Source of the DNA: Octopus sinensis
Lineage: Eukaryota
DNA: 64,000 bases
NCBI RefSeq assembly: GCF_006345805.1
Contig: NC_043012.1
Coordinates: forward strand, 50,220,001-50,284,000
Direction: 5' to 3'
Shown here: piece after piece, positions 1 to 62,465 of the stretch
How positions within the stretch are numbered: the first letter of the stretch is position 1
Layout: each line of letters begins with the position of its first letter
Notes under the pieces: generated by a model
What the model was told of the DNA's origin: nothing
The model's database searches: none
What the model saw: the letters and a program-made list of their open reading frames with translations, nothing else
Made by a program: the position numbers and the translations under genes

Positions 1-21
1 TACTTTTATAAAAAACCTTTT

Positions 22-57
22 CAGTACCGGTTTCAGTCATTGGGACTTTTTCAACTA
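22..57 (-). ncRNA. Minimal type I hammerhead ribozyme, U3-A8 variant (copy 1)
   Basis: Minus strand reads uag-UUGAAAA-AGUC-ccaau-GACU-GAAAC-CG-GUA-cug. Stems I and II form and stem III is the palindrome ACCGGU. Confidence 0.6.
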
Positions 58-851
58 TATGTATGGAAAAAAAAATTAAATTTTCGAAAAATTAAAAGAA
101 AAGTTTTTCAAAAGAATATTTGCATAGTTTTCAAAGACAAGAAGCATTTTCCTTGTTTCTGCCTGTCTCTGTCTCTCTTGTTTACTCTTGTGGGTTCGAG
201 GTCGTCTTGAATTCTTGGCAAGGAAGTAGAAGAAGGAAAAGGATAAAGAAGAAGAAGAAGAAGAGAAGAAGAAGAAGAAGAAGAAGAAGAAGAAGAAAGA
301 GGAGTGGGAGAAGAAGAAGAATGTGGGAGTGCCATGATAGTAGTAAGATGTTAAATGGTCAAGTGACCATTTAACATCATACTACTATCACAATAGCTGC
401 ATTCCCTTCTCATTCTCCCTTCTCTTTGTCCGTCTTCAACCTCTCCGGCACCTCCTTCCTACCTTTACCACTATTGCTGTTTAGAATAACACCTACGCAA
501 ATATTAAAAACAATACGTTCAAAAGAGATGTCTCAAGAATTCAATCACTACTACCATCCACAACAAGTCACTTTCAGGGCATTTGACCATTTAACATCTT
601 ACTACTATCATGGCACTCCCGCATTCCCCTTCTTCACCTCCTCCTCCTCCTCCACCTTATTCTTCTTCCTCTTCTTCTCCTTCTTCTTCTTCCCTGCCAT
701 GAATTCACAACGACCTCGAACCCACAAGAGTAAATAAGAGAGACAGAGCCAGGCAGAAACAAGGAAAATACCCCTTGTATTTGAATACTATGCAAATATT
801 CTTTTAAAAATCTTTTCTTTTAATTTTTCCGAAATTTAATTGTTTTCCATG

Positions 852-894
852 TTTACAGTTGAAAAAGTCTCAATGACTGAAACTAGTACTGAAA
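852..894 (+). ncRNA. Minimal type I hammerhead ribozyme, U3-A8 variant (copy 2)
   Basis: uuuacag-UUGAAAA-AGUC-ucaau-GACU-GAAAC-UA-GUA-cugaaa. Stem III is the palindrome ACUAGU. Confidence 0.65.
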
Positions 895-1001
895 TGTTTT
901 TTATAAAATTATTTTAACAATTTTTACCATGACTTTTTTCCATATATATCAACTCGTGTGTTCCTTTTCAACCTTCTATATATATATATGCATATATATA
1001 T

Positions 1002-4060: not shown

Positions 4061-6989
4061 CGTATTGTTACTAATATTGACACAATTGCATGTTCTTCAG
4101 CTATTTGCGCAGATATAATACATACAATTCTCCTAATATAATTAGTATTAACGCTAATAATATGGAAAGTCTCTTGTACTATAACCACTAATTTTTCTCA
4201 TAACAACTCTACTATTGGTGTTACTATTAGTATCAATGTTTCTGCGCTTACTATTACATCAGTAAATCATAGGGAAAACTGAAATCATTATAAAATGCAA
4301 TGAATTAAAGATAATGAACACACAACATCTATCGTATATTATCAGATTAAGTCTCTTTTACATATTCAGTGTGTATGTAAATTTTAATATAGAGATCTTA
4401 TTAAAACACAGACGTCAGTTTTACTTCAGAGGTCTTGTTAAGCAAGAACGTAACAAATACATTTATTATGCGAGAAAGCAAATTAACGCAGACATTGATG
4501 ATGCACAGTTAACTTTATATTTATTGTAGTGTATTAGAAAGAGCTCTCAATTCGCTGAGACTGTAATGCTTCTGATTACGTAAATAATTTAGTTTCAGAC
4601 AGTATCTTTCTGTGTTCAAACCATAGTACAGACACATTCAACTTCCATGACACGAGAATCCTAAATTATATGACAAAATATTAACAATCATGTACAATAA
4701 AGACTTCACGAGTACGAACTGGTTACTTGTGGGTGTTATCGTTGTTGTTTCGTTTGTTTTCATAATATATTCGTTAATCTTGTTCAAGCTCTTGTTTTTG
4801 ATTTATTTAGTTGCTATTGCTGTTCTTACTGTTTCCCTTATTGTTTATTCCCACAGTAAAAATTTATTCAGCAGAGTTTCTCTTCATACACATGCAGGTC
4901 TCTCTGTGTGTGGCAACATATGCTCCACGACTCAAAGTTGTGGTCACATTTTCTTAGAATCGAAGTAGGATTAGTATTCTAAACATTCTAAAGGACCCAC
5001 CCAATAAATATTATACCATACCTTTAATGCCCTAGCTCAGTTTTCTCAGTCCTTTGCCAAATCTCAGGTGACATCTACAGAGATTGCTGGATGAAGAATT
5101 TTGGTGGCTTTGATTAAGATATATATTTCTGCAGATCATCTCTAGAAATCAGAGTTAACTGCAAACCAAATATGAACTCAAGCAACTATGCCAAGCACTC
5201 GCTACACGAAATATCATTAACAACGTAATAGCTTTGTAAAATAAATTCTAGTTAGCTTTAAGAACAGTCTGAATGTTATCTTCAGAAAGTCATTCAGGTT
5301 AAATTTTCACTGTGAAGTGCTACTGTCTCGATGTGATTTCAGCCTGAAATTTGTTCTAAAAACATTTCATATTCGTATCGTGCGCAGGACAGAATTGGTT
5401 GTCAATAGGGATAATATAAAACGACGTCGTATAAAATTGCTTTATTAAGAAAAGGCATGTCATTCTTCTCAAACTATGGGCTACAGCAAATCAAGTACAG
5501 TTGTAGACACAATTGCAAGGCCTGATAGTAAAAGGATATCCCTTTCGGTCAATGTTCTGTCCTAAACATTTACAACTTCACTTGAAGTTGCTGCTGTGAA
5601 TTTGAAGAAGGACGATGTGCGTTACGGTTTCATAACTGGAATGTTCTAATCTGAAAATTCGTATGTAATCTCCAAGGAGAGAGAGTATCAAACTTTTACT
5701 GTCCTGTCTTTGAAAAATATTCAACCAGAGCAGAAAATATTTTGTACAATCACTCAGCTTGTTTCATCGCAAAACGAGCTTTAAGTGAATGAAAAGCCAA
5801 ATAGTTGTACGTCTATTTTTCTAAACATTATTTACTTTTAATCTCTGTAATATTTTCCTGTCACACTCAAGAGGATACACATAACATTGTTTTCAAAATT
5901 TTAAATACAATCTTCATTGTTTTAATGCTGTAATTAAAAATTATTGCTTTCACTCTATATTCATTACTGCGTCATTGCATGTTTGCAATTAAACATTTTG
6001 AGGCGAACACATGCTTGTTATAACAGGGATTTATAGCTGGTGTTTAGATCTGTAGAGATATGGAAAGTAGGTCTTTACAGAAATAAATCACGTCGAAACA
6101 ACAAACATATTTCTTACCGATAATTAATTTATTGTAGTTATCTTCGAGCATGCACGAATGCTTCAAATCCAAATATTTTTGTACGAAATATTGCACACGA
6201 ACTCATGAAATCAGAAAGATTCACAAACGTTTGGAAAGACTCACAGATTTGTCTGTCTTCGTTTATGTGTATCATTGTGTTTGGTAGAGTTCGGAATATA
6301 TGTTTGCTCTGATGTAATTGCGACGGGAACTAAATTTCAACAAATTGTTACGTTGGTCTTGCGTTCCAAAATTCTCTTTTCGTTTGACCTTGTATTAACA
6401 ACAAAATACAGTACATGCAACAAAATTTGATAGAAATAAACAAAGAAAATCTATAGTAACTAAGCAAAGAACTATGTGAAATTTAACAGCAATAACTCTC
6501 GGACATAATCATTGAATAACTTTCGAATTCGGCATTTTAACAGGCCGATCACTAGATCCAGCATAACCTATTTCGAGCTAACACAAAGTGCTATGAAACA
6601 CGTTGTTAGCCGACATTATCAGGTTTCAATTGTTAATACAATAATGAGTTCAGGAACGCTAATGATGAAAATTGAAATTAAAATCCAAGTAAATATAAAT
6701 AATCCTTATGAAACTAAATTACGATGCTCGAAATTATTCCTGCCTATAATTATTTCAACAAGAAGTTGTTTCCAAAAGTCTTGCATATTTTTATTGTTCC
6801 ACTTACAGATTGTATTCGGAATGTGCGAGTTAGTTAAGTAATTTTTTTCTGAATATCGGGGATTATCCAAACAGCAATTTAGGTATTTATTCACAAAAGC
6901 AAACTCACCAATAATTATAAGTATAAACGCAAATTGGTGATCTGGATATAGAAGCTACTGGTTTTAAAGCAGCTGTCCATAGCTATCAT

Positions 6990-21529: not shown

Positions 21530-21580
21530 ATATATATATATATATGTGTGAGTATGTATGTCTGATTGGCTTACTGTTTG

Positions 21581-21762
21581 ACAGACAAAGGGATTAAGTC
21601 GATTACATCGACTCCAGTGCGTAACTGGTACTTAATTTCTCGACCCTGAAAGGATGAAAGTCAAAGTCGACCTCGACGGAATTTGAACTCAGAACGTAAC
21701 GGCAGACGAAATACCGCCAGGCATTTCGCTCGGCGTGCTAACATTTCTGCCAGCTCGCCGCC

Positions 21763-21764
<2 letters not shown>
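21581..21764 (-). mobile_element. SINE family A
   Basis: Near-consensus reverse copy ending cagctcgccgcctt. Confidence 0.9.
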
Positions 21765-21811
<47 letters not shown>

Positions 21812-23979: not shown

Positions 23980-24130
23980 ACAGATTTCGGCGAGAATGGA
24001 AAAGTCGTTAACATTTCGAGCCTATACTCTTCGACAGAGAGGATTGAGAGGGAATAAAACGGTGAGAGAGAAAAAAAACAGACACCGAAAAAGCGTGTAG
24101 GTTTAACGGTTCAACACGATAAGTCTGTAT
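23980..24130 (-). mobile_element. Short pLTR-like element with a degenerate hammerhead (CUGUCGA core, 24006-24040)
   Basis: Minus strand CUGUCGA-A-GAGU-auag-GCUC-GAAAU-GUU. It belongs to the same family as the motif at 46271. Stem I is poor. Confidence 0.5.
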
Positions 24131-24142
24131 ATATATATAATT

Positions 24143-24415
24143 TACTTTTGTACTTCCCACAAGGATCTAAACATAGAGGGGACAAATAAGACAGACAAAG
24201 GGATTAAGTCGATTACATCGACTCCAGTGAGTAACTGGTACTTATTTAACCCTTCCCAAAAGGAAGAAATGCTAAGTCGACTTCGGCGGAATTTGAACTC
24301 TGAAAGTAGCAGTAGACGAAATACCGCGAAGCATTTTGGCATGGGCCTTGATTTTCGTCTGACAAATCCACTCACAAGGCTTTCGTGGGCCCGAGGCTGA
24401 GGATAAGTAATATAT
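24143..24415 (-). mobile_element. SINE family A plus adjoining family C fragment
   Basis: cccacaagg..ctaaacatagaggggacaaa...ggcggaatttgaactc, then aatccactcacaaggcttt. Confidence 0.8.
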
Positions 24416-32751: not shown

Positions 32752-33164
32752 TATATCTGCATGTATATAACATATAAATTTATATACATCACCAACGTAC
32801 ATAAAGAAACACATATTTATGCGCCGTGAATTATTATGTTCTGCGTATCTTTGCATATATACAAATTTGTGTACTGATAACGCAGATTCAGTTTAATGTT
32901 TACTTAGTTTTTGTGTGAGATTATTGTAATTGCGATGATCTCTGATCGATTCTGTCATCGGACCCTGTTCGTGTCGGACATTACCAAATTGCAATTTATT
33001 CTCGAACCGTGGCAATGTGTAGTTAACATCCATATGCCTGCAATGCATTCTTCATCAATTATAATAATATGCATCACCAACAGAGTCGCCCTGTAGTTGA
33101 TTATTTGTGTACAAATATTTATTTGAAGAACCATAGCTATGATTATTTAATATTAAAGTAAAGG

Positions 33165-33920
33165 AAGGCGGCGAGCTGGCAGAAACGTTAGCACGCCGGG
33201 CGAAATACTTAGCCGTATTTCGTCTGCCGTTACGTTGTGAGTTCAAATTACGCCGAGGTCGACTTTGCCTTTCATCCTTTCGGGGTCAATAAATTAAGAA
33301 GCAGTTACGCAGTGGGGTAGATGTTATCGACTTAATACCTATGTCTGTCCTTGTTTGTCCCCTCTATGTTTAGCCCCTTGTGGGTAATAAAGAAATAGGT
33401 ATTTCGTCTACGGCTACGTTCTGAGTTCAAATTCCGTCGATGTCGACTTTGCCTGTCATCCTTTCGGAGTCGATTAAATAAGTACCAGTCACGCACTGGG
33501 GTCGATATAATCTGTTTGTCCTTGTTTGTCCTCTCCGTGTTTAGCCCCTTGTGGGTAATAAAGAAATATGCATTTCATCTGTCTTTACGTTCTGAGTTCA
33601 AATTCCGCCGAGGTTGACTTTGCTTTTCATCCTTTTGAGGTCGATAAATTAAGTACTACTTGCGTACTGCCGCTTCGTTCATACTTCAAATTCCGTCGAT
33701 GTCGACTTTGCCTTTCCTTCTTTCGGAGTCGGTTAAATATGTACTAGTTACGCACTGGAGTCGATGTAATCAACTTAATCCCTTAGTCTGTCTTGTTTGT
33801 CCCCTCTATGTTTAGACCCTTTTAGGCAATAAAAAAATAAATTATATATATATAATCGACTGCCCCCGACCAAAAAGAAAAAAAAAATCGGGCCTTGTGC
33901 CTAGAGTATAAAAGAATATT
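33165..33920 (+). mobile_element. SINE family A tandem array (one head, four body units)
   Basis: One head aaggcggcgagctggcagaaacg. The unit ttcaaattccg..gtcgactttgcc recurs four times and the tail tttagcccctt-gtgggtaataaagaaat three times. Confidence 0.9.
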
Positions 33921-39611: not shown

Positions 39612-39788
39612 CATCATTTACATAATTTACATTTGACGGGTATTTCTCTTCATCTTGTTTGTTGTTAACACAACGTTTCAGCTGATATACCCTCCAGCCT
39701 TCATCAGGTGTCTTGAGAAAATTTTGAACCTGCTTTCTCATTCTTAAGGCATTTTTCGATGTTATTATTATTATTATTATTATTATTA

Positions 39789-43906: not shown

Positions 43907-44658
43907 TCAGGCGGTGACAAGGCAGAATTGGTCGCACGCTATACGAGATGTTTAGTTCCATTTAATCCGTTTCGACACTCTGGGTGCATATTCCCCAAAG
44001 TCTACTTTCACGTTCATACGTTTGATAACTAGTTTGAGCGGTGGAGTCGATGTAATCGAGCAGCGCCCTACTTGTTACTACAGCGCCTTCTACTTGTTAC
44101 TACAAAATATTCATTATCAACGTTGTTTCGGGGCTGCTGTATTTCAAACTAATTTGGGTAGCGTAAAAAAACATCTAAGTAGCAATTGTTTGATATTTTA
44201 ACGACACCCTCTTCGCATCACTTTATCTTTTGGTCAGTCTTATATCGATAAAGTCGGTGACGGTCACGTATAAAGGTTTACTTGATTATCTGTAAGAGAG
44301 CAGCGTACTTCAAAATATTTTGCCTCATGAAATCAATGTTGTTAAAAACGAGAAAGTGATAGGTACATTCACTTCAGTAAAAAGAAGAGTAAAAGATTTT
44401 CGAGATTTGTCAATATTTTTTTATATTCTGACACTTTTTTCTAATTTCTTACTGACATTATTGATAGCCTCGTATCTAACCAACAATTTAGGCAACTATC
44501 TTATTACGGCTCGATCATTCGAGAAAGAAAAGTGTAATAATAGAAAAAACACACATAACAAAAAAAAATTAAATGAAACACAGAAGTAAATTTGATATAT
44601 AGATGTTTCTAAATACACATATATAAATTGCATACATTTAACGATATGACTATTTAGA

Positions 44659-44793
<135 letters not shown>

Positions 44794-44811
44794 GTTTATA
44801 TATATATATGT

Positions 44812-44929
44812 ATACACGTATATATATATGCATATACCTAGATATTTATCTATACGTTATATATTCATATGAATATATATATGTATGTATATATTTATAT
44901 ATTTATATATACATATATTTATATATATG

Positions 44930-44960
<31 letters not shown>

Positions 44961-45455
44961 GTATATATATATGTGTGTGTGTGTATGTATACGTATTTTT
45001 GTATATGTGTGTGTGCGTGTATCTCTGTGGATGTGTGTGGATGTACGCTTGTGTAGTGAAAAAAGAGGAATGCAAAAATATAATATATAGTAAATAGAAG
45101 CACAATGAATTAATGTGTTTGAGTGTCTACGTAGAGACATATGTGATTATGCATCAGTAAATATGTCTATATCTATATTTATACGCAGTATATATCCGTT
45201 GTAAGAACAGAGATATACACATCCTTTCGTAGAACCCACCAATACTCAATTATGCAAATATAAAAGAGATATACATATGTTCATACATAGACAAACGTAA
45301 ACACCAATGCCACTCATATACGTAGTAACAAACAAACTCACAAACACACCACACACCTACGCACACTCACATACTATGTGTGTGTTATTGTGTATATTTG
45401 CGTGTGTTGATATACCTTTTTTTGTTGATATTTATATATAACCGCACTCGTATAT

Positions 45456-45495
<40 letters not shown>

Positions 45496-46401
45496 GTTCA
45501 TGCAAAGATGTAAAATAGGTATGGTACATACATAAAGATAATTAGATAGTAAATAGATAGATAAAGATTGAGAGAAAGAGAGTCAGAGCGGAGAAAAAAA
45601 AGTAATACGTTGTTAGATTTGTAGAGAGAGATCTATATACAAAAATTTACTTAAAGCTCAAAGAAGAAAGAAAACGATAGCGAAAGTGTGAAAGCGAAAC
45701 AGCAGAAATCAGGGGGAAAAGGGTAGAAGGAGGGAAAAGAAGAAGAAGAAGAAAGAAGAAGAAGAAGAAGAAGAAGAAGAAGAAGGAGGAGGAGGGGAAG
45801 GAGGAGGAGGAAAAGAAGAAGAAGAAGACGAAGAAGAAAAGGAGAAGTAAAAGGAGAAAACAGAGGAAGAAGAAGAAGTGTTGAAGAGAAGAGAAGAGAA
45901 TAAGAGAAGAATAAAGAAGAAGAAGAAGAATAAAAAGAAGAAAAGAGAAGAAGACAAGAAGAAAAAGAAATAAAACAAAAAAGAACCAGAAGAAGAAGGA
46001 AAAGAGGAAGTAGAATGAGACGAACAAGAAGAAAAAGAAGAAGATAATGGAAAATAACAGTAGACGTTGAAAAAATTGCAAAGCCATTCTGAGCCTTCTT
46101 TTACCAGTTCCCAAATAAAACAAAGTTGCTTTCAAAAATATGTCTAAAGAAAACAGTTGCTCTATCTGTCCGATCTGTCTGACTTGTTTTTAAAAAATGA
46201 ATATTAGTTATTACTAAACATTATACCATACATGTATGTGTGTCCGTGATTATACATACATACATACATACTTTCTGTTGAAGAGCGTAGGCTCGAAACG
46301 TTAAAGACTTGTTTTATTTATATTTCCTGAGCGCCATAACTATCATTGTTTGTTTGTTTTCCACCTGCCTCGTTTTTTGTCTATTTTCATAAAGCTTCCC
46401 G

Positions 46402-46403
<2 letters not shown>
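44812..46403 (+). repeat. Tandem segmental duplication, copy 1
   Basis: Collinear with 46768-48356 (offset ~1.95 kb). Differences are mostly 1-bp indels. Confidence 0.92.
46271..46306 (+). ncRNA. Minimal hammerhead-like motif, A6U core variant
   Basis: cuuu-CUGUUGA-A-GAGC-guag-GCUC-GAAAC-GUU-aaag. Stems I and II are perfect, and a ~95-bp pLTR-like tail follows before (TA)n. Confidence 0.65.
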
Positions 46404-46454
<51 letters not shown>

Positions 46455-46526
46455 CATTATATAATACATATATATATATGTTATATTATATACATACATA
46501 TATATATATATACACATATATCTATG

Positions 46527-46581
<55 letters not shown>

Positions 46582-46624
46582 ATATATTATATATATACAT
46601 ATATATATATATATTATATATATA

Positions 46625-46691
<67 letters not shown>

Positions 46692-46693
46692 TA

Positions 46694-46743
<50 letters not shown>

Positions 46744-46767
46744 TATATATGTTATATATATATATGT

Positions 46768-48355
46768 CCACGTATATATATGCATGTATACCTAGATATT
46801 TATCTATACGTTTATATATTCATATGAATATATATATGTATGTATATATTTATATATTTATATATACATATATTTATATATATGTATATATATATACATA
46901 ATATAGATATATATGTATATTATATATGTGTGTGTGTGTATGTATACGTATTTTTGTATATGTGTGTGTGCGTGTATCTCTGTGGATGTGTGTGGATGTA
47001 CGCTTGTGTAGTGAAAGAAAGAGGAATGCAAAAATATAATATATAGTAAATAAGAAGCACAATGAATTAATGTGTTTGATGTCTACGTAGAGACATATGT
47101 GATTATGCATCAGTAAATATGTCTATATCTATATTTATACGCAGTATATATCCGTTTAAGAACAGAGATATACACATCCTTTCGTAGAACCAACCAATAC
47201 TCAATTATGCAAATATAAAAGAGATATACATATGTCATACATAGACAAACGTAAACACACAAATGCACACTCATATACGTACAGAAACAAACTCACAAAC
47301 ACACACACACACCTACGCACACTCACATACATATATGTGTGTGTTATTGTGTATATTTGCGTGTGTTGATATACCTTTTTTTGTTGATATTTATATATAA
47401 CCGCACTCGTATATACACACACATATATATATATATATATATATTCAAGTTCATGCAAAGATGTAAAATAGGTATGGTACATACATAAAGATAATTAGAT
47501 AGGTAAATAGATAGATAAAGATTGAGAGAAAGAGAGTCAGAGCGGGAGAAAAAAAGTAATACGTTGTTAGATTTGTAGAGAGAGATCTATATACAAAAAT
47601 TTACTTAAAGCTCAAAGAGAAAGAAAACGATAGCGAAAGTGTGAAAGCGAGACAGCAAGAAATCAAGGGGGAAAAGGGTAGAAGGAGAAGAAGAAGAAGA
47701 AGAAGAAGAAGAAGAAGAAGAAGAAGAAGAAGAAGGAGGAGGAGGAGGAGGAGGAGGAGGAAAAGAAGAAGAAGAAGAAGAAGAAGAAGAAGGAGAAGTA
47801 GAAGGAGAAGAAGAGGAAGAAGAAGAAGGTGAAGAAGAAGAAGGAGAAGAAGAAGAAGAAGAAGAAGAAGAAGAAGAAGAAGAAGAAAAAGAAGAACAAG
47901 AAGAAGAAGAAGAAGAAGAAAAAAAGAAGAACAAGAAGAAGAAGGAAAAGAGGAAGTAGAATGAGACGAACAAGAAGAAAAAGAAGAAGATAATGGAAAA
48001 TAACAGTAAGACGTTGAAAAAATTGCAAAAAGCCATTCTGAGCCTTTCTTTTACCAGTTCCCAAATAAAACAAAGTTGCTTTCAAAAAATTATGTCTAAA
48101 GAAAACAGTTGCTCTATCTGTCCGATCTGTCTGACTTGTTTTTAAAAAATGAATATTAGTTATGACTAAACATTATACCATACATGTATGTGTGTCCGTG
48201 ATTATACATACATACATACATACTTTCTGTTGAAGAGCGTAGGCTCGAAACGTTAAAGACTTGTTTTATTTATATTTCCTGAGCGCCATACTAATACAAT
48301 TGTTTGTTTGTTTTCCACCTGCCTTCGTTTTTTGTCTATTTCATAAAGCTTCCCG

Positions 48356-48356
<1 letters not shown>
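46768..48356 (+). repeat. Tandem segmental duplication, copy 2
   Basis: Collinear with 44812-46403. The (GAA)n block is cleaner in this copy. Confidence 0.92.
48223..48258 (+). ncRNA. Minimal hammerhead-like motif, A6U variant (duplicate)
   Basis: Identical to 46271-46306. Confidence 0.65.
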
Positions 48357-48404
<48 letters not shown>

Positions 48405-48470
48405 CATATATATATATACATATATATATATGTATATATATATACATACATATATATATATATACACATA

Positions 48471-48508
<38 letters not shown>

Positions 48509-48550
48509 ATATATATATATATGTATGTATATATATATATATATATACTA

Positions 48551-48601
<51 letters not shown>

Positions 48602-49754
48602 TATGTTTGTGTATGAGTGTGTATGTGGGGTAAGCACTATATGTAGCCATATATATATATATATATATAGTATATAATTAAATGATGAATGAAGTGGAAA
48701 TTATGCAATGAACTTTGGGCTGTTTCTTGTATATAATGCAACGGATCCAGAGCTGAGTGTTTCTGTAATAGCTTACAGCTTCCTCAGAGCTTCTAACATA
48801 AAATGCAAATTTATCTGGGAAAGGATTTACATATATATAGGAAAGATTACCAATGAAAACAATTAAAATACATAAGAAATTGAGTATAGGTTTTGATGGA
48901 CATCTCCATATTTCTAAACGATTTTCTCCATCAAAACCTCTTCTAGGTATATGTAGATTGATATATCTTTGCATATATACGCGTGTATGTATAAATGTGC
49001 ATAATGAGCCTCTAAGTAAATAACTATTCATTCATATAGAGAGGAGGTGGGATAAAATGTGAAATGTTTACTACATTTTCGATTTTTAGAAAACAAATTA
49101 CAATTGTTGACTGTATTACAAATATATATCAACTAAGTAAATGGCCTTCTATAAATACATTGAAAACCCCATAACACTTAGAATACTTCAGAAATTTAAT
49201 TCATCTCTCTTTCGGCATATAAAAGACAAATTTATGCGGGGCAAAATGAGTAACACAAAGTGAAGTATGTTAGCCTTGCTAATCTTCTAGAATTACTTTA
49301 CAAAATCAAAGTTCATACACATCGATACCCATCATTAGATATCACAACGATCAAGAATAGAAAAACTGATTCAAATCAAAGTGAACCTTGGAGAAGTGTG
49401 ACATGAATTGAAATTGACGAAAAGCGATTAAATCTACAACTTAACACAAATTATTCTTCAGAATTGCTGAAATGACTCTCTAATAATTTTACGCAGCTCG
49501 TTATTACGAAGAAACAACTACTGAAATTTATTATTACTCATTTTGCCCTACTTCACTCATCAAATTTTAATTTTAAAATTTAAAATGCTGGAATTAGACA
49601 TTAGTGATGGAAAAAATTGACTTCGAATCCAACAGAGACAAGAATTTGGTTTGCTAAACGCTCAAAATTTCTCCAGATATTTTCTTGGCAACGTCAATTA
49701 AAATAGGGGCGAATTTATACATACATATTATGTATGTATATATACATATTTATA

Positions 49755-50543: not shown

Positions 50544-50610
<67 letters not shown>

Positions 50611-50614
<4 letters not shown>

Positions 50615-50835
50615 TAAATTGGAGATAAAACCACTATTAGGCAAATCATACAATGAAAAACTTAAGCCAATACATAAGATTATTTAATTTATATTATTTA
50701 AATATATAACAAAATTATTAAGAAAATATATTAATTTTTTAAAATAATTTTGTTATATATTTAAATAATCTTATGTATTGGCTTAAGTTTTCATTGTATG
50801 ATTGCCTAATAGTGGCTTTATCTCTAATTTGATAT
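50611..50835. repeat. Long AT-rich inverted repeat (fold-back element) in (TA)n
   Basis: ggagataaaaccactattaggcaaatcatacaatgaaaaacttaagccaatacataagattattta pairs with taaataatcttatgtattggcttaagttttcattgtatgattgcctaatagtggctttatctct. An inner arm pair lies at 50696-50719 and 50743-50767. Confidence 0.9.
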
Positions 50836-50921
50836 AATATAACATTTTACTATAAAATTGGATTCAATCCTAAATCTTATTTTCTCCTGTAAGTTTTGAT
50901 TTATTCCCTAATATTTATTAT

Positions 50922-55035: not shown

Positions 55036-55637
55036 CGAACGAATGGAACAGATAAAAGGTTCTTTAACACGTCATAAATTTAAATTATTCGTTACAAATG
55101 TTTCTGTACTAGTTTGTGCAAAAATTTGAACTCAAAAATTGAGGTAAAGGTTGTGTTTCATGACATTAAAAGAAGCATTTCCAAGGATATTCACGACATA
55201 TCTCAATACATTCAACAGATAAAAAATACATTGAAGAGATGTCTCAAGAACTCAATCACTATTACCATCCACAACAATACACTGTTAGGGTACTTGACCA
55301 TTTAACATCCTACTATTATCATAGCACTCCCACATTCAGTATCCTCCTCCTCCTTCTCATGTTCGTCTTCTTCTTCTTCTTCGTCTTCTTCTCTGCCAAG
55401 AATTCACAACTACCTTGAACCCACACGAGTAAACAAGAGAGACAGAGACAGGCAGAAACAAGGAAAATACCCCTTGTATTTGAATGCTATGCAAATATTC
55501 TTTTAAAAAGCTTTCCATTTAAATTTTCCAAATTTTTTTCCATACTTACAGTTGAAAAAGTCTGAATGACCGAAACCGGTACTGAAATGATTTTTATAAA
55601 ATTACTTTAGCATTTTCTACCTCGACTTTTTTCCATT
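55035..55637 (+). mobile_element. Third copy of the element at 1-941 (longer 5' part with ORF remnant 55114-55305)
   Basis: Aligns with 505-941 (KRCLKNSIT.TIHN....G.LTI*, then ..aagaattcacaac..acccac..gagtaaacaagagagacagag..). Inserted in (TA)n. Confidence 0.8.
55546..55587 (+). ncRNA. Minimal type I hammerhead ribozyme, U3-A8 variant (copy 3)
   Basis: uuacag-UUGAAAA-AGUC-ugaau-GACC-GAAAC-CG-GUA-cugaaa. Confidence 0.6.
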
Positions 55638-55677
55638 TATATACATTATATATATATACTTGTGTGAGTGTGAATTT

Positions 55678-59750: not shown

Positions 59751-60041
59751 TCTTGAAATTAGATCTCTATATCACGCACACATGGTTGTGATGCATGTGC
59801 CTGATGTAACCTTATCAGACGTGTATCATGATCGGTAAACAGTGTTTCATACATTTTACCCCACTTCAATGTCATGCAGAATTGGAAGGGCCCAGGCATA
59901 GATTTAGTTCAAATGTAGTTGCTAAAGAAATTTAATAGTTTACATGTGAGGTTGAGGGAACATCTTCAGAATGGATAACTAGAGGGCGGACAATAATCAT
60001 TATGAAATTTAGAAGCAAGCGTAATACAGATAGCAAATATA

Positions 60042-60274
60042 TATTTCTTTACTACCCACAAGGGGCTAAGCACAGAGGGAACAAACAAGGACAGACAAAC
60101 GGATTAAGTCGATTACATCGACCCCAGTGCATAACTGGTACTTAATTTATTGACCCTGAAAGGATGAATGTCAAAGTCGACCTCGGTGGAATGTGAACCC
60201 AGAACGTAACGGCAGACGAAATACGGCTACGCTTTTCGCCCGGCGTGGTAACGTTTCTGCCAGATCGCTGCCTT
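60042..60274 (-). mobile_element. SINE family A, full length with 12-bp TSD
   Basis: TSD atagcaaatata at 60030-60041 and 60275-60286. Confidence 0.92.
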
Positions 60275-62237: not shown

Positions 62238-62452
62238 ATGGTTTCAAATTTTGCCAACAGCGAAGCAATTTTGAAGAGGGGCTATGTCGATTACATCGAC
62301 CCCAGTGTTCCATTGGTGGTTAATTTATCGACCTCGAAATGATGATAGGCAAAGTCGACCTCGAAGGAATTCGAAGTTAGATCGTAGCGAGGGATGAAAT
62401 ACCGCTAAGTACTTTGTCCGGTGTGCTAACAATTCTGCCAGTTCGCTGCCCT
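62238..62452 (-). mobile_element. SINE family A
   Basis: gtcgattacatcgaccccagtg...ggcaaagtcgacctcg...gctaacaattctgccagttcgctgcc. Confidence 0.85.
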
Positions 62453-62465
62453 CAAAAAATACCTG

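What the first reader, a model, noticed from the sequence alone, without database searches (positions are those of the whole stretch)
852..894. U3-A8 variant hammerhead conserved in three copies with co-varying palindrome
Seen: the core reads UUGAAAA instead of CUGANGA in all three copies (22-57 minus, 852-894, 55546-55587). The stem II loop varies freely (ccaau/ucaau/ugaau), while stem III stays palindromic through a double change (ACCGGU vs ACUAGU). The cleavage triplet is GUA and stem I is cag/cug. Established: C3-G8 is a Watson-Crick pair in the active fold and U3-A8 is a tolerated compensatory swap. Inference: this is a selected, possibly dimer-acting ribozyme invisible to CUGANGA searches. 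Caveat: CpG decay on both strands could also turn CG into TA.
Basis: partly seen in the sequence, partly recalled or inferred. Interest (0 to 1): 0.75.

Follow-up and report, generated by a model that had tools for sequence, protein, structure and literature searches.

The report
Penelope retrotransposon hammerhead, U3-A8 variant
The three motifs are decayed end-pieces of an abundant Penelope-type jumping gene that carries a small hammerhead RNA, predicted to cut itself only as a pair; its unusual U-A core pair is real across related families but already published, and the 'co-varying' palindrome in this copy is likely just mutational decay.

Summary
The three motifs are there. They lie in 3' end fragments (pLTR) of a Penelope-like retroelement with reverse transcriptase and GIY-YIG endonuclease; one pattern finds 3,032 copies in the genome (control 0). 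U3-A8 is the family state, not decay of these copies. Sister families at about 67% protein identity keep it while stem II, N7, N17 and the palindrome (ACCGGU versus ACAUGU) change, so the motif was selected in source lineages. Copies 1 and 2 are likely one head-to-head insertion. U3-A8 hammerheads are published, in Penelope elements since 2014, and this scan noted them on other DNA before. Cleavage was not tested. Side findings: one genomic copy and RNA-like contigs of two organisms show dense A-to-G changes through the core (ADAR-like), and the element has a conserved UUUUUUA site between ORF1 and the -1-frame RT ORF.

The parts
364..983 (+). 5'-truncated 3' fragment (3' UTR/pLTR) of the older subfamily of the Penelope-like element, with the ~34-nt tail at about 950-983, followed by (TA)n
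   Evidence: blastn to the full unit in L038; tail match; (TA)n 977-1111; the 5' part 364-432 is assigned by its self-similarity to 577-650
852..894 (+). Hammerhead copy 2: stem I CAG 856-858 / CUG 889-891, core U3-A9 859-865, stem II AGUC/GACU 866-878, G12-A15.1 879-882, palindrome ACUAGU 882-887, A17 888
   Evidence: sequence
1..361 (-). Inverted 3' fragment of the same subfamily, without tail; runs about 40 nt past the window start
   Evidence: L045; 30 of 260 aligned bases differ from copy 2
22..57 (-). Hammerhead copy 1: UAG/CUG stem I, UUGAAAA, AGUC-CCAAU-GACU, ACCGGU, A17 at 25
   Evidence: sequence
347..378 (.). Palindrome (15-bp arms, 2-nt spacer) at the head-to-head junction of the two fragments
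55221..55642 (+). Separate 3' fragment of the same subfamily, without tail
   Evidence: 84% to 508-949; ends at the family's shorter 3' end
55546..55587 (+). Hammerhead copy 3: UUGAAAA, AGUC-UGAAU-GACC (A10.1-C11.1 mismatch), ACCGGU, A17 at 55581
   Evidence: sequence

Best explanation
The motif is the minimal type I hammerhead in the terminal repeat of a Neptune-type Penelope-like retroelement, with a family-wide U3-A8 core pair; it is predicted to cut after GUA only when two copies pair through the palindrome, and the window's copies are likely dead fragments decaying neutrally. Shown: motif, host element, copy numbers, neutral decay in inserted copies, family-level covariation. Inferred: in tandem pLTR-ORF-pLTR transcripts the two hammerheads about 4.3 kb apart pair through ACCGGU and process the precursor, probably slowly or with help from the element's protein. 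The copies that get inserted come from RNA uncut at the 3' hammerhead, since they end 64 or 98 nt past the cut site. ACUAGU in copy 2 arose by two post-insertion transitions at a CpG.
For: Host: hammerheads flank ORFs with Pfam RVT_1 and GIY-YIG; a 4,325-bp unit lies between two direct hammerheads in L038; older-subfamily copies carry RT/EN remnants upstream at 70-88% identity in 5 loci (L069, L071, L073, L089, L106). Family state: U3 in 98 and A8 in 96 of the first 100 of 710 copies found with the core left free (hand count); 0 core changes at 231 sites in 33 young copies picked by protein. Selection between lineages: young versus old majority differ at 2 of 36 motif sites, the paired G10.1-C11.1 to A-U, against 21 of 147 flank sites. 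A second pattern finds 1,810 U3-A8 motifs with ACAUGU (control 6), with other paired stems II, N7 mostly U and N17 A, U or C; RT lies beside 5 of 8 loci of the GGUU-stem type, up to 66% identity over the whole ORF. In 82 relative loci, 27 of 28 distinct motifs have a Watson-Crick 3-8 pair when any pair was allowed (22 C-G, 4 U-A, 1 A-U). 3' ends fall at unit 128 or 161-162 in 31 of 34 hits. Literature: PMC4209133, PMC3088659, PMC11167929.
Against: No cleavage data. Monomer folds do not close stem III and predicted dimers are dominated by longer intermolecular pairings, not a clean double hammerhead. The old-versus-young contrast alone is small and was not tested for significance. No enrichment of breakpoints at the cut site (2 of 144 and 1 of 108 candidates; these sets were biased to intact motifs, and the two 5' cases look like another repeat or an insertion). 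An A10.1-C11.1 mismatch recurs in 4 of 100 and 5 of 55 listed old copies, so a weakened stem II may have spread. Clade assignment rests on one motif and domain order, with no named references in the tree.
Confidence: 0.85

Rival explanations
1. The window copies themselves are maintained ribozymes, and ACCGGU/ACUAGU is compensatory covariation.
For: All three keep the core; ACUAGU is still a palindrome.
Against: 17 of 26 flank-selected copies keep all 11 invariant core bases by default; core and flank rates are equal. ACUAGU is 3 of 710; palindrome breakers are far commoner (52 CCAG genome-wide, 13 CUGG in 100 rows). Copies 1 and 2 are on opposite strands and cannot pair in cis as sense RNAs; copy 3 has a stem II mismatch.
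Confidence: 0.04
2. The motif is a catalytically silent relic kept as a protein-binding or structural signal for reverse transcription, not for cutting.
For: Inserted copies span the cut site. A copy whose core As read as G was still inserted with the normal 3' end (L244). In PMC11167929 (passages read) hammerhead mutants did not affect insertion in vitro and no reads began at the cut site.
Against: The 3-8 position stays Watson-Crick across at least 4 switches on the tree, a pair that matters for the active fold; the same paper shows protein-assisted cleavage by a Penelope hammerhead.
Confidence: 0.15
3. U3-A8 is only CpG-type or A/T-biased decay of a C3-G8 core in old copies.
For: The genome is A/T-rich; 121 C3-G8 motifs with a similar stem II exist.
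Against: The youngest, near-identical copies with open RT-EN frames all have U3-A8; C3 and G8 are not in CpG context; most of the 121 motifs are not homologous to this family (3 distinct places of the 30 loci checked are).
Confidence: 0.01

Closest known systems
U3-A8 minimal hammerheads of Schistosoma mansoni Cercyon Penelope-like elements (Cervera and De la Pena 2014, PMC4209133; about 1,300 hits)
   Same: Type I motif in the pLTR, U3-A8 instead of C3-G8, palindromic stem III, short stem I, mostly truncated or inverted copies, predicted dimer action.
   Different: Here stem II is 4 bp with no extra base after A9, the palindrome is 6 nt (ACCGGU), closer to the small-palindromic-helix-III variants the paper describes for Drosophila, rotifers and shrimp; N17 is A; the older subfamily has A10.1-U11.1 instead of G-C.
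Natural U3-A8 hammerheads (Perreault et al. 2011, PMC3088659, section 8)
   Same: Same compensatory core swap, reported there as natural and previously shown active in vitro.
   Different: That section does not tie them to Penelope elements or to this minimal form.
Neptune/Nematis C-terminal-endonuclease Penelope-like elements (Craig et al. 2021, bioRxiv 2021.04.23.441226 / PMC8557442; PMC3846280)
   Same: RT then GIY-YIG, CX4CX2C motif before the endonuclease, GLKF and DKG motifs, partial tandems, inverted 5'-truncated copy with junction palindrome, 30-40-bp tail on one end, (TA)n flanks.
   Different: Coding region is split into a 411-aa ORF1 and a -1-frame RT-EN ORF at UUUUUUA. The paper's Fig. 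1 legend says ORF1 can be separated by a frameshift in PLEs, but I could not see the figure to tell for which clades.
PAc Poseidon element of Anolis (PMC11167929)
   Same: Two 3' ends about 34 nt apart; insertions from RNA uncut at the hammerhead.
   Different: Canonical C3-G8 core, different clade, ORF start overlapping the ribozyme; here ORF1 starts about 120 nt after the cut site.

Membership tests
Minimal type I hammerhead of Penelope-like elements | Core with Watson-Crick 3-8 pair, U4 G5 A6 A9, G12 A13 A14, A15.1-U16.1, H17 | tested here: met
Minimal type I hammerhead of Penelope-like elements | Stems I and II base-paired, with covariation between families | tested here: met
   G-C/A-U at 10.1-11.1; other stems in sister families. 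Copy 3 itself has a mismatch.
Minimal type I hammerhead of Penelope-like elements | Palindromic stem III | tested here: met
   ACCGGU, ACAUGU, ACGU, AGCU, AUAU, AGAUCU between families; note the relatives' scan required a palindrome. Within the subfamily it is not conserved.
Minimal type I hammerhead of Penelope-like elements | Sense-strand location in the pLTR of an RT + GIY-YIG element | tested here: met
Minimal type I hammerhead of Penelope-like elements | Self-cleavage, as a dimer | not testable with these tools
   Only assembled contigs were available; folding was inconclusive
Rfam hammerhead families | Match to a hammerhead covariance model | tested here: not met
   No hammerhead among 5 hits at E<=10 in 780-960
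Neptune/Nematis Penelope-like elements | C-terminal GIY-YIG with CX2-5CxxC linker | tested here: met
   protein printed; Pfam; criterion
Neptune/Nematis Penelope-like elements | RT phylogeny with named reference elements | not tested
   The tree held no named references
Non-LTR retrozyme | Short tandem non-coding units without ORF | tested here: not met
   Family has a 4.3-kb coding unit; window copies are truncated fragments

The most novel reading that the evidence does not exclude
Head-to-head Penelope insertions like the one at 1-983 make double-stranded RNA that ADAR hyper-edits through the hammerhead core, and such edited RNA is still reverse-transcribed into the genome: L244 is a fossil of this, showing in a living animal that the 3' ribozyme's catalytic core is not needed for insertion. 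The same clade likely makes its RT-endonuclease by a programmed -1 frameshift at UUUUUUA.
Probability: 0.6. Interest if true: 0.5.

Novelty: new member of a known kind. Interest (0 to 1): 0.25.

Why it matters
The finding as given is ordinary: another Penelope family with a published core variant. It adds a large young family (thousands of near-identical copies, tandem arrays, open RT-EN frames) suited to testing dimer or protein-assisted cleavage, and shows repeated C3-G8/U3-A8 switching on the RT tree. The side findings bear on an open question, what Penelope hammerheads do: a hyper-edited copy with a destroyed core that still inserted suggests the 3' ribozyme is dispensable for insertion in vivo.

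Tried and rejected
Rfam: no hammerhead among the 150 of 258 whole-window rows shown or in 780-960. One search had one N too many and found only 3 insertion variants. Core-versus-flank tests: (flank 18%) included non-homologous flank, and (p=0.008 in favour of core conservation) had a wrong reference base at one column and a truncated copy; both were replaced (p=1.0), which dropped L184 (the window), L187, L210 (broken) and L199 (truncated), leaving 26 of 30. A C3-G8 revertant sub-lineage: 3 of 22 C3 copies have G8 against 2 of 98 U3 copies (p about 0.04, run with 99); two of the three share one flank variant; weak, not claimed. Breakpoints at the cut site: not enriched in biased sets. No RNA holder listed by the look-up of sequencing runs; all runs were contigs, so no read ends. 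Test of one U3-A8 clade did not finish. No stable hairpin 3' of the slippery site (-1.7 kcal/mol). Neighbour preference of the A-to-G sites in L244 was uninformative. Lunse et al. 2017 on dimer cleavage was not held; I saw only its title and a review's passages. Supplement file 1 of PMC4209133 was not searchable; file 2 has no 'octopus' or 'cephalopod'. bioRxiv supplements are closed and may bear on the frameshift.

Full report
Observation. The three motifs are at the stated places. In copy 2 the core U3-A9 is 859-865, stem II is AGUC/GACU, the palindrome ACUAGU is 882-887 and A17 is 888. Copy 1 has UAG/CUG in stem I; copy 3 has an A10.1-C11.1 mismatch. Each lies in a 350-620-bp repeat fragment. 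Copies 1 and 2 are head to head across a 15-bp palindrome at 347-378 and differ at 30 of 260 aligned bases; only copy 2 has the ~34-nt tail. This matches the inverted pLTR, junction palindrome and one-sided tail described for Penelope-like elements (passages of bioRxiv 2021.04.23.441226, PMC8557442 and PMC3846280), so they are likely one insertion.

Host element. The window is G000:C16:50220001-50284000 in a 2.7-Gb animal genome. A tight pattern gives 3,032 matches, control 0; about three quarters of the first 100 listed are one identical young form (UUGAAAA, GGUC/GACC, ACCGGU; hand count). Pairs flank ORFs that hit Pfam RVT_1 (4 of 7 ORFs scanned) and GIY-YIG (4 of 7, one above the curated cut-off). 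L038 holds a 4,325-bp unit between two direct hammerheads. The protein has GLKF, DKG and a CX4CX2C motif before the GIY-YIG domain, which marks Neptune/Nematis elements. The window's copies belong to an older subfamily (AGUC-UCAAU-GACU; 710 copies by the pattern), whose members carry RT/EN remnants upstream in 5 of the loci L049-L111.

Is the palindrome co-varying? Not within the subfamily. With the centre left free, the first 100 of 710 copies read CCGG 62, CTGG 13, CCAG 9, CCGA 6, other 10, CTAG 0 (hand count). Genome-wide, all 55 C-N-A-G copies are 52 CCAG and 3 CTAG, one of them this copy; independence predicts 7.7. Palindrome-breaking single transitions at the CpG dominate, and the double change is not enriched.

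Is the core conserved? Not in inserted copies. In 26 of 30 copies picked by the upstream flank alone (four dropped, see Tried and rejected), the 11 invariant core bases differ at 10 of 284 sites and unselected flanks at 43 of 1,128, p=1.0; 17 of 26 are intact. Three intact cores are thus unremarkable. Between lineages it is conserved. Young and old majorities differ at 2 of 36 motif sites, exactly the 10.1-11.1 pair, against 21 of 147 in the flanks. A pattern for U3-A8 with ACAUGU finds 1,810 matches, control 6, in several families with different paired stems II and different N7 and N17; RT lies beside 5 of 8 loci of one type and 0 of 12 of another. In 82 relative loci from other organisms, 31 hold a motif; of 28 distinct motifs 22 have C3-G8, 4 U3-A8, 1 A3-U8 and 1 a mismatch; 25 are on the RT strand; five shuffles gave 0, 0, 0, 2, 0 hits. 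On an RT tree of 36 rows the state changes at least 4 times by starred branches, 5 by parsimony, and the five own-genome U3-A8 rows form one clade (100/100). The formal one-clade test did not finish.

Mechanism. Shown: anatomy, host, covariation, decay. Inferred: stem III is too short alone, and two hammerheads on one tandem transcript pair through the palindrome and cut after GUA. PMC4209133 (parts 1-2 of 4 read) reports no monomer activity and low dimer activity for a Schistosoma minimal motif. PMC11167929 (passages) reports protein-assisted cleavage and insertion from unprocessed RNA. Here 31 of 34 hits in protein-picked loci end at unit 128 or 161-162, that is 64 or about 98 nt past the cut site, so templates were intact there. 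Folding did not yield a clean double hammerhead.

What is known. U3-A8 is reported as natural covariation in PMC3088659 (section 8 read) and in Schistosoma Penelope elements, about 1,300 hits, in PMC4209133. Rfam misses the motif. Eight of 24 earlier scan notes were shown; most reach the same reading on other DNA. One calls this genome octopus-like; I did not test that.

Side finding 1, editing. Laying public contigs on the young pLTR gave loose ends that are the hammerhead region with sense-strand A read as G: 11 of 12 in a 30-nt piece in X6 (organism A) and 7 of 8 in a 17-nt piece in X13 (organism B), including core As (compared by hand). These runs are only guessed to be RNA, no matched DNA was laid, and the large run X15 showed none among its listed rows (41 rows not shown). 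A pattern for such changes finds 1 genomic copy, L244: 145 bp, 20-21 of about 48 As read as G, 0-1 of 96 other sites changed, normal 3' end, (TA)n flanks. It is the only skewed copy among 294 screened, and it differs from both contig pieces. ADAR action on duplexes from inverted copies is my inference from general knowledge. Three literature searches (listings only) showed no title on this, which does not show it is absent from print.

Side finding 2, frameshift. All 17 ORF1/RT junctions found in 15 of 16 long loci read U UUU UUA; ORF1 is a full 411 aa in 2, and the -1 frame is open for 773-782 codons in 9. The same heptamer sits in the same phase in sister family L365 and, without an early Met, in 4 of 16 relatives from other organisms. 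No stimulatory structure was found.

Verdict. A real, family-selected, already described hammerhead variant in a Penelope element; the window copies are decayed and the reported covariation is not real. Interest 0.25.

Noticed in passing
L244:1454-1597 (G000:C12, about 76,890,450-76,890,590): Genomic 145-bp 3' copy of the young family with 20-21 A-to-G changes on the sense strand and almost no other change, core destroyed; likely a reverse-transcribed hyper-edited RNA.
   Followed up: partly
L038:6530-6560 and 6605-6633, runs X6 and X13: Loose contig ends matching the pLTR with dense sense-strand A-to-G changes in two organisms.
   Followed up: partly
L038 minus strand near 5200; L175, L365, L267, L269, L270, L277: UUUUUUA heptamer where ORF1 overlaps the -1-frame RT-EN ORF; candidate programmed frameshift.
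   Followed up: partly
window 39668-39710, minus: A second minimal hammerhead with canonical CUGAUGA core, extra A after A9, long stem II and ACGU palindrome; similar rows recur, so another repeat family.
   Followed up: no
L144, L147-L154, L156, L157: Canonical CUGACGA hammerhead family with the same ACCGGU palindrome in about 355-360-bp tandem units, retrozyme-like, no blastn match to this element.
   Followed up: partly
L372-L383: U3-A8 family with AGGG/CCCU stem II and ACAUGU, no RT in 12 of 12 loci; L372 has a second, different U3-A8 motif with ACUAGU 361 nt away.
   Followed up: partly
L214-L243: 121 diverse C3-G8 motifs with RGUC/GACY stem II (control 0), often followed by ACAUGU-like sequence, no RT within 1.5 kb in 30 loci; an old separate family.
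   Followed up: partly
L235, L236, L239: Three copies of the window's subfamily with C3-G8; weak excess over chance (p about 0.04).
   Followed up: yes
L347, L348: Penelope-like RT with hammerheads inside bacterial genome assemblies, probably animal DNA carried in the bins.
   Followed up: no
window 21580-21765, 24128-24336, 33164-33850, 60035-60274, 62277-62454: Copies of a short interspersed repeat, tandem at 33.2-33.9 kb.
   Followed up: no
window 44595-48684: About 2.1-kb direct duplication at 92% identity, rich in simple repeats.
   Followed up: no
window 50605-50841: Fold-back inverted repeat of about 240 bp.
   Followed up: no
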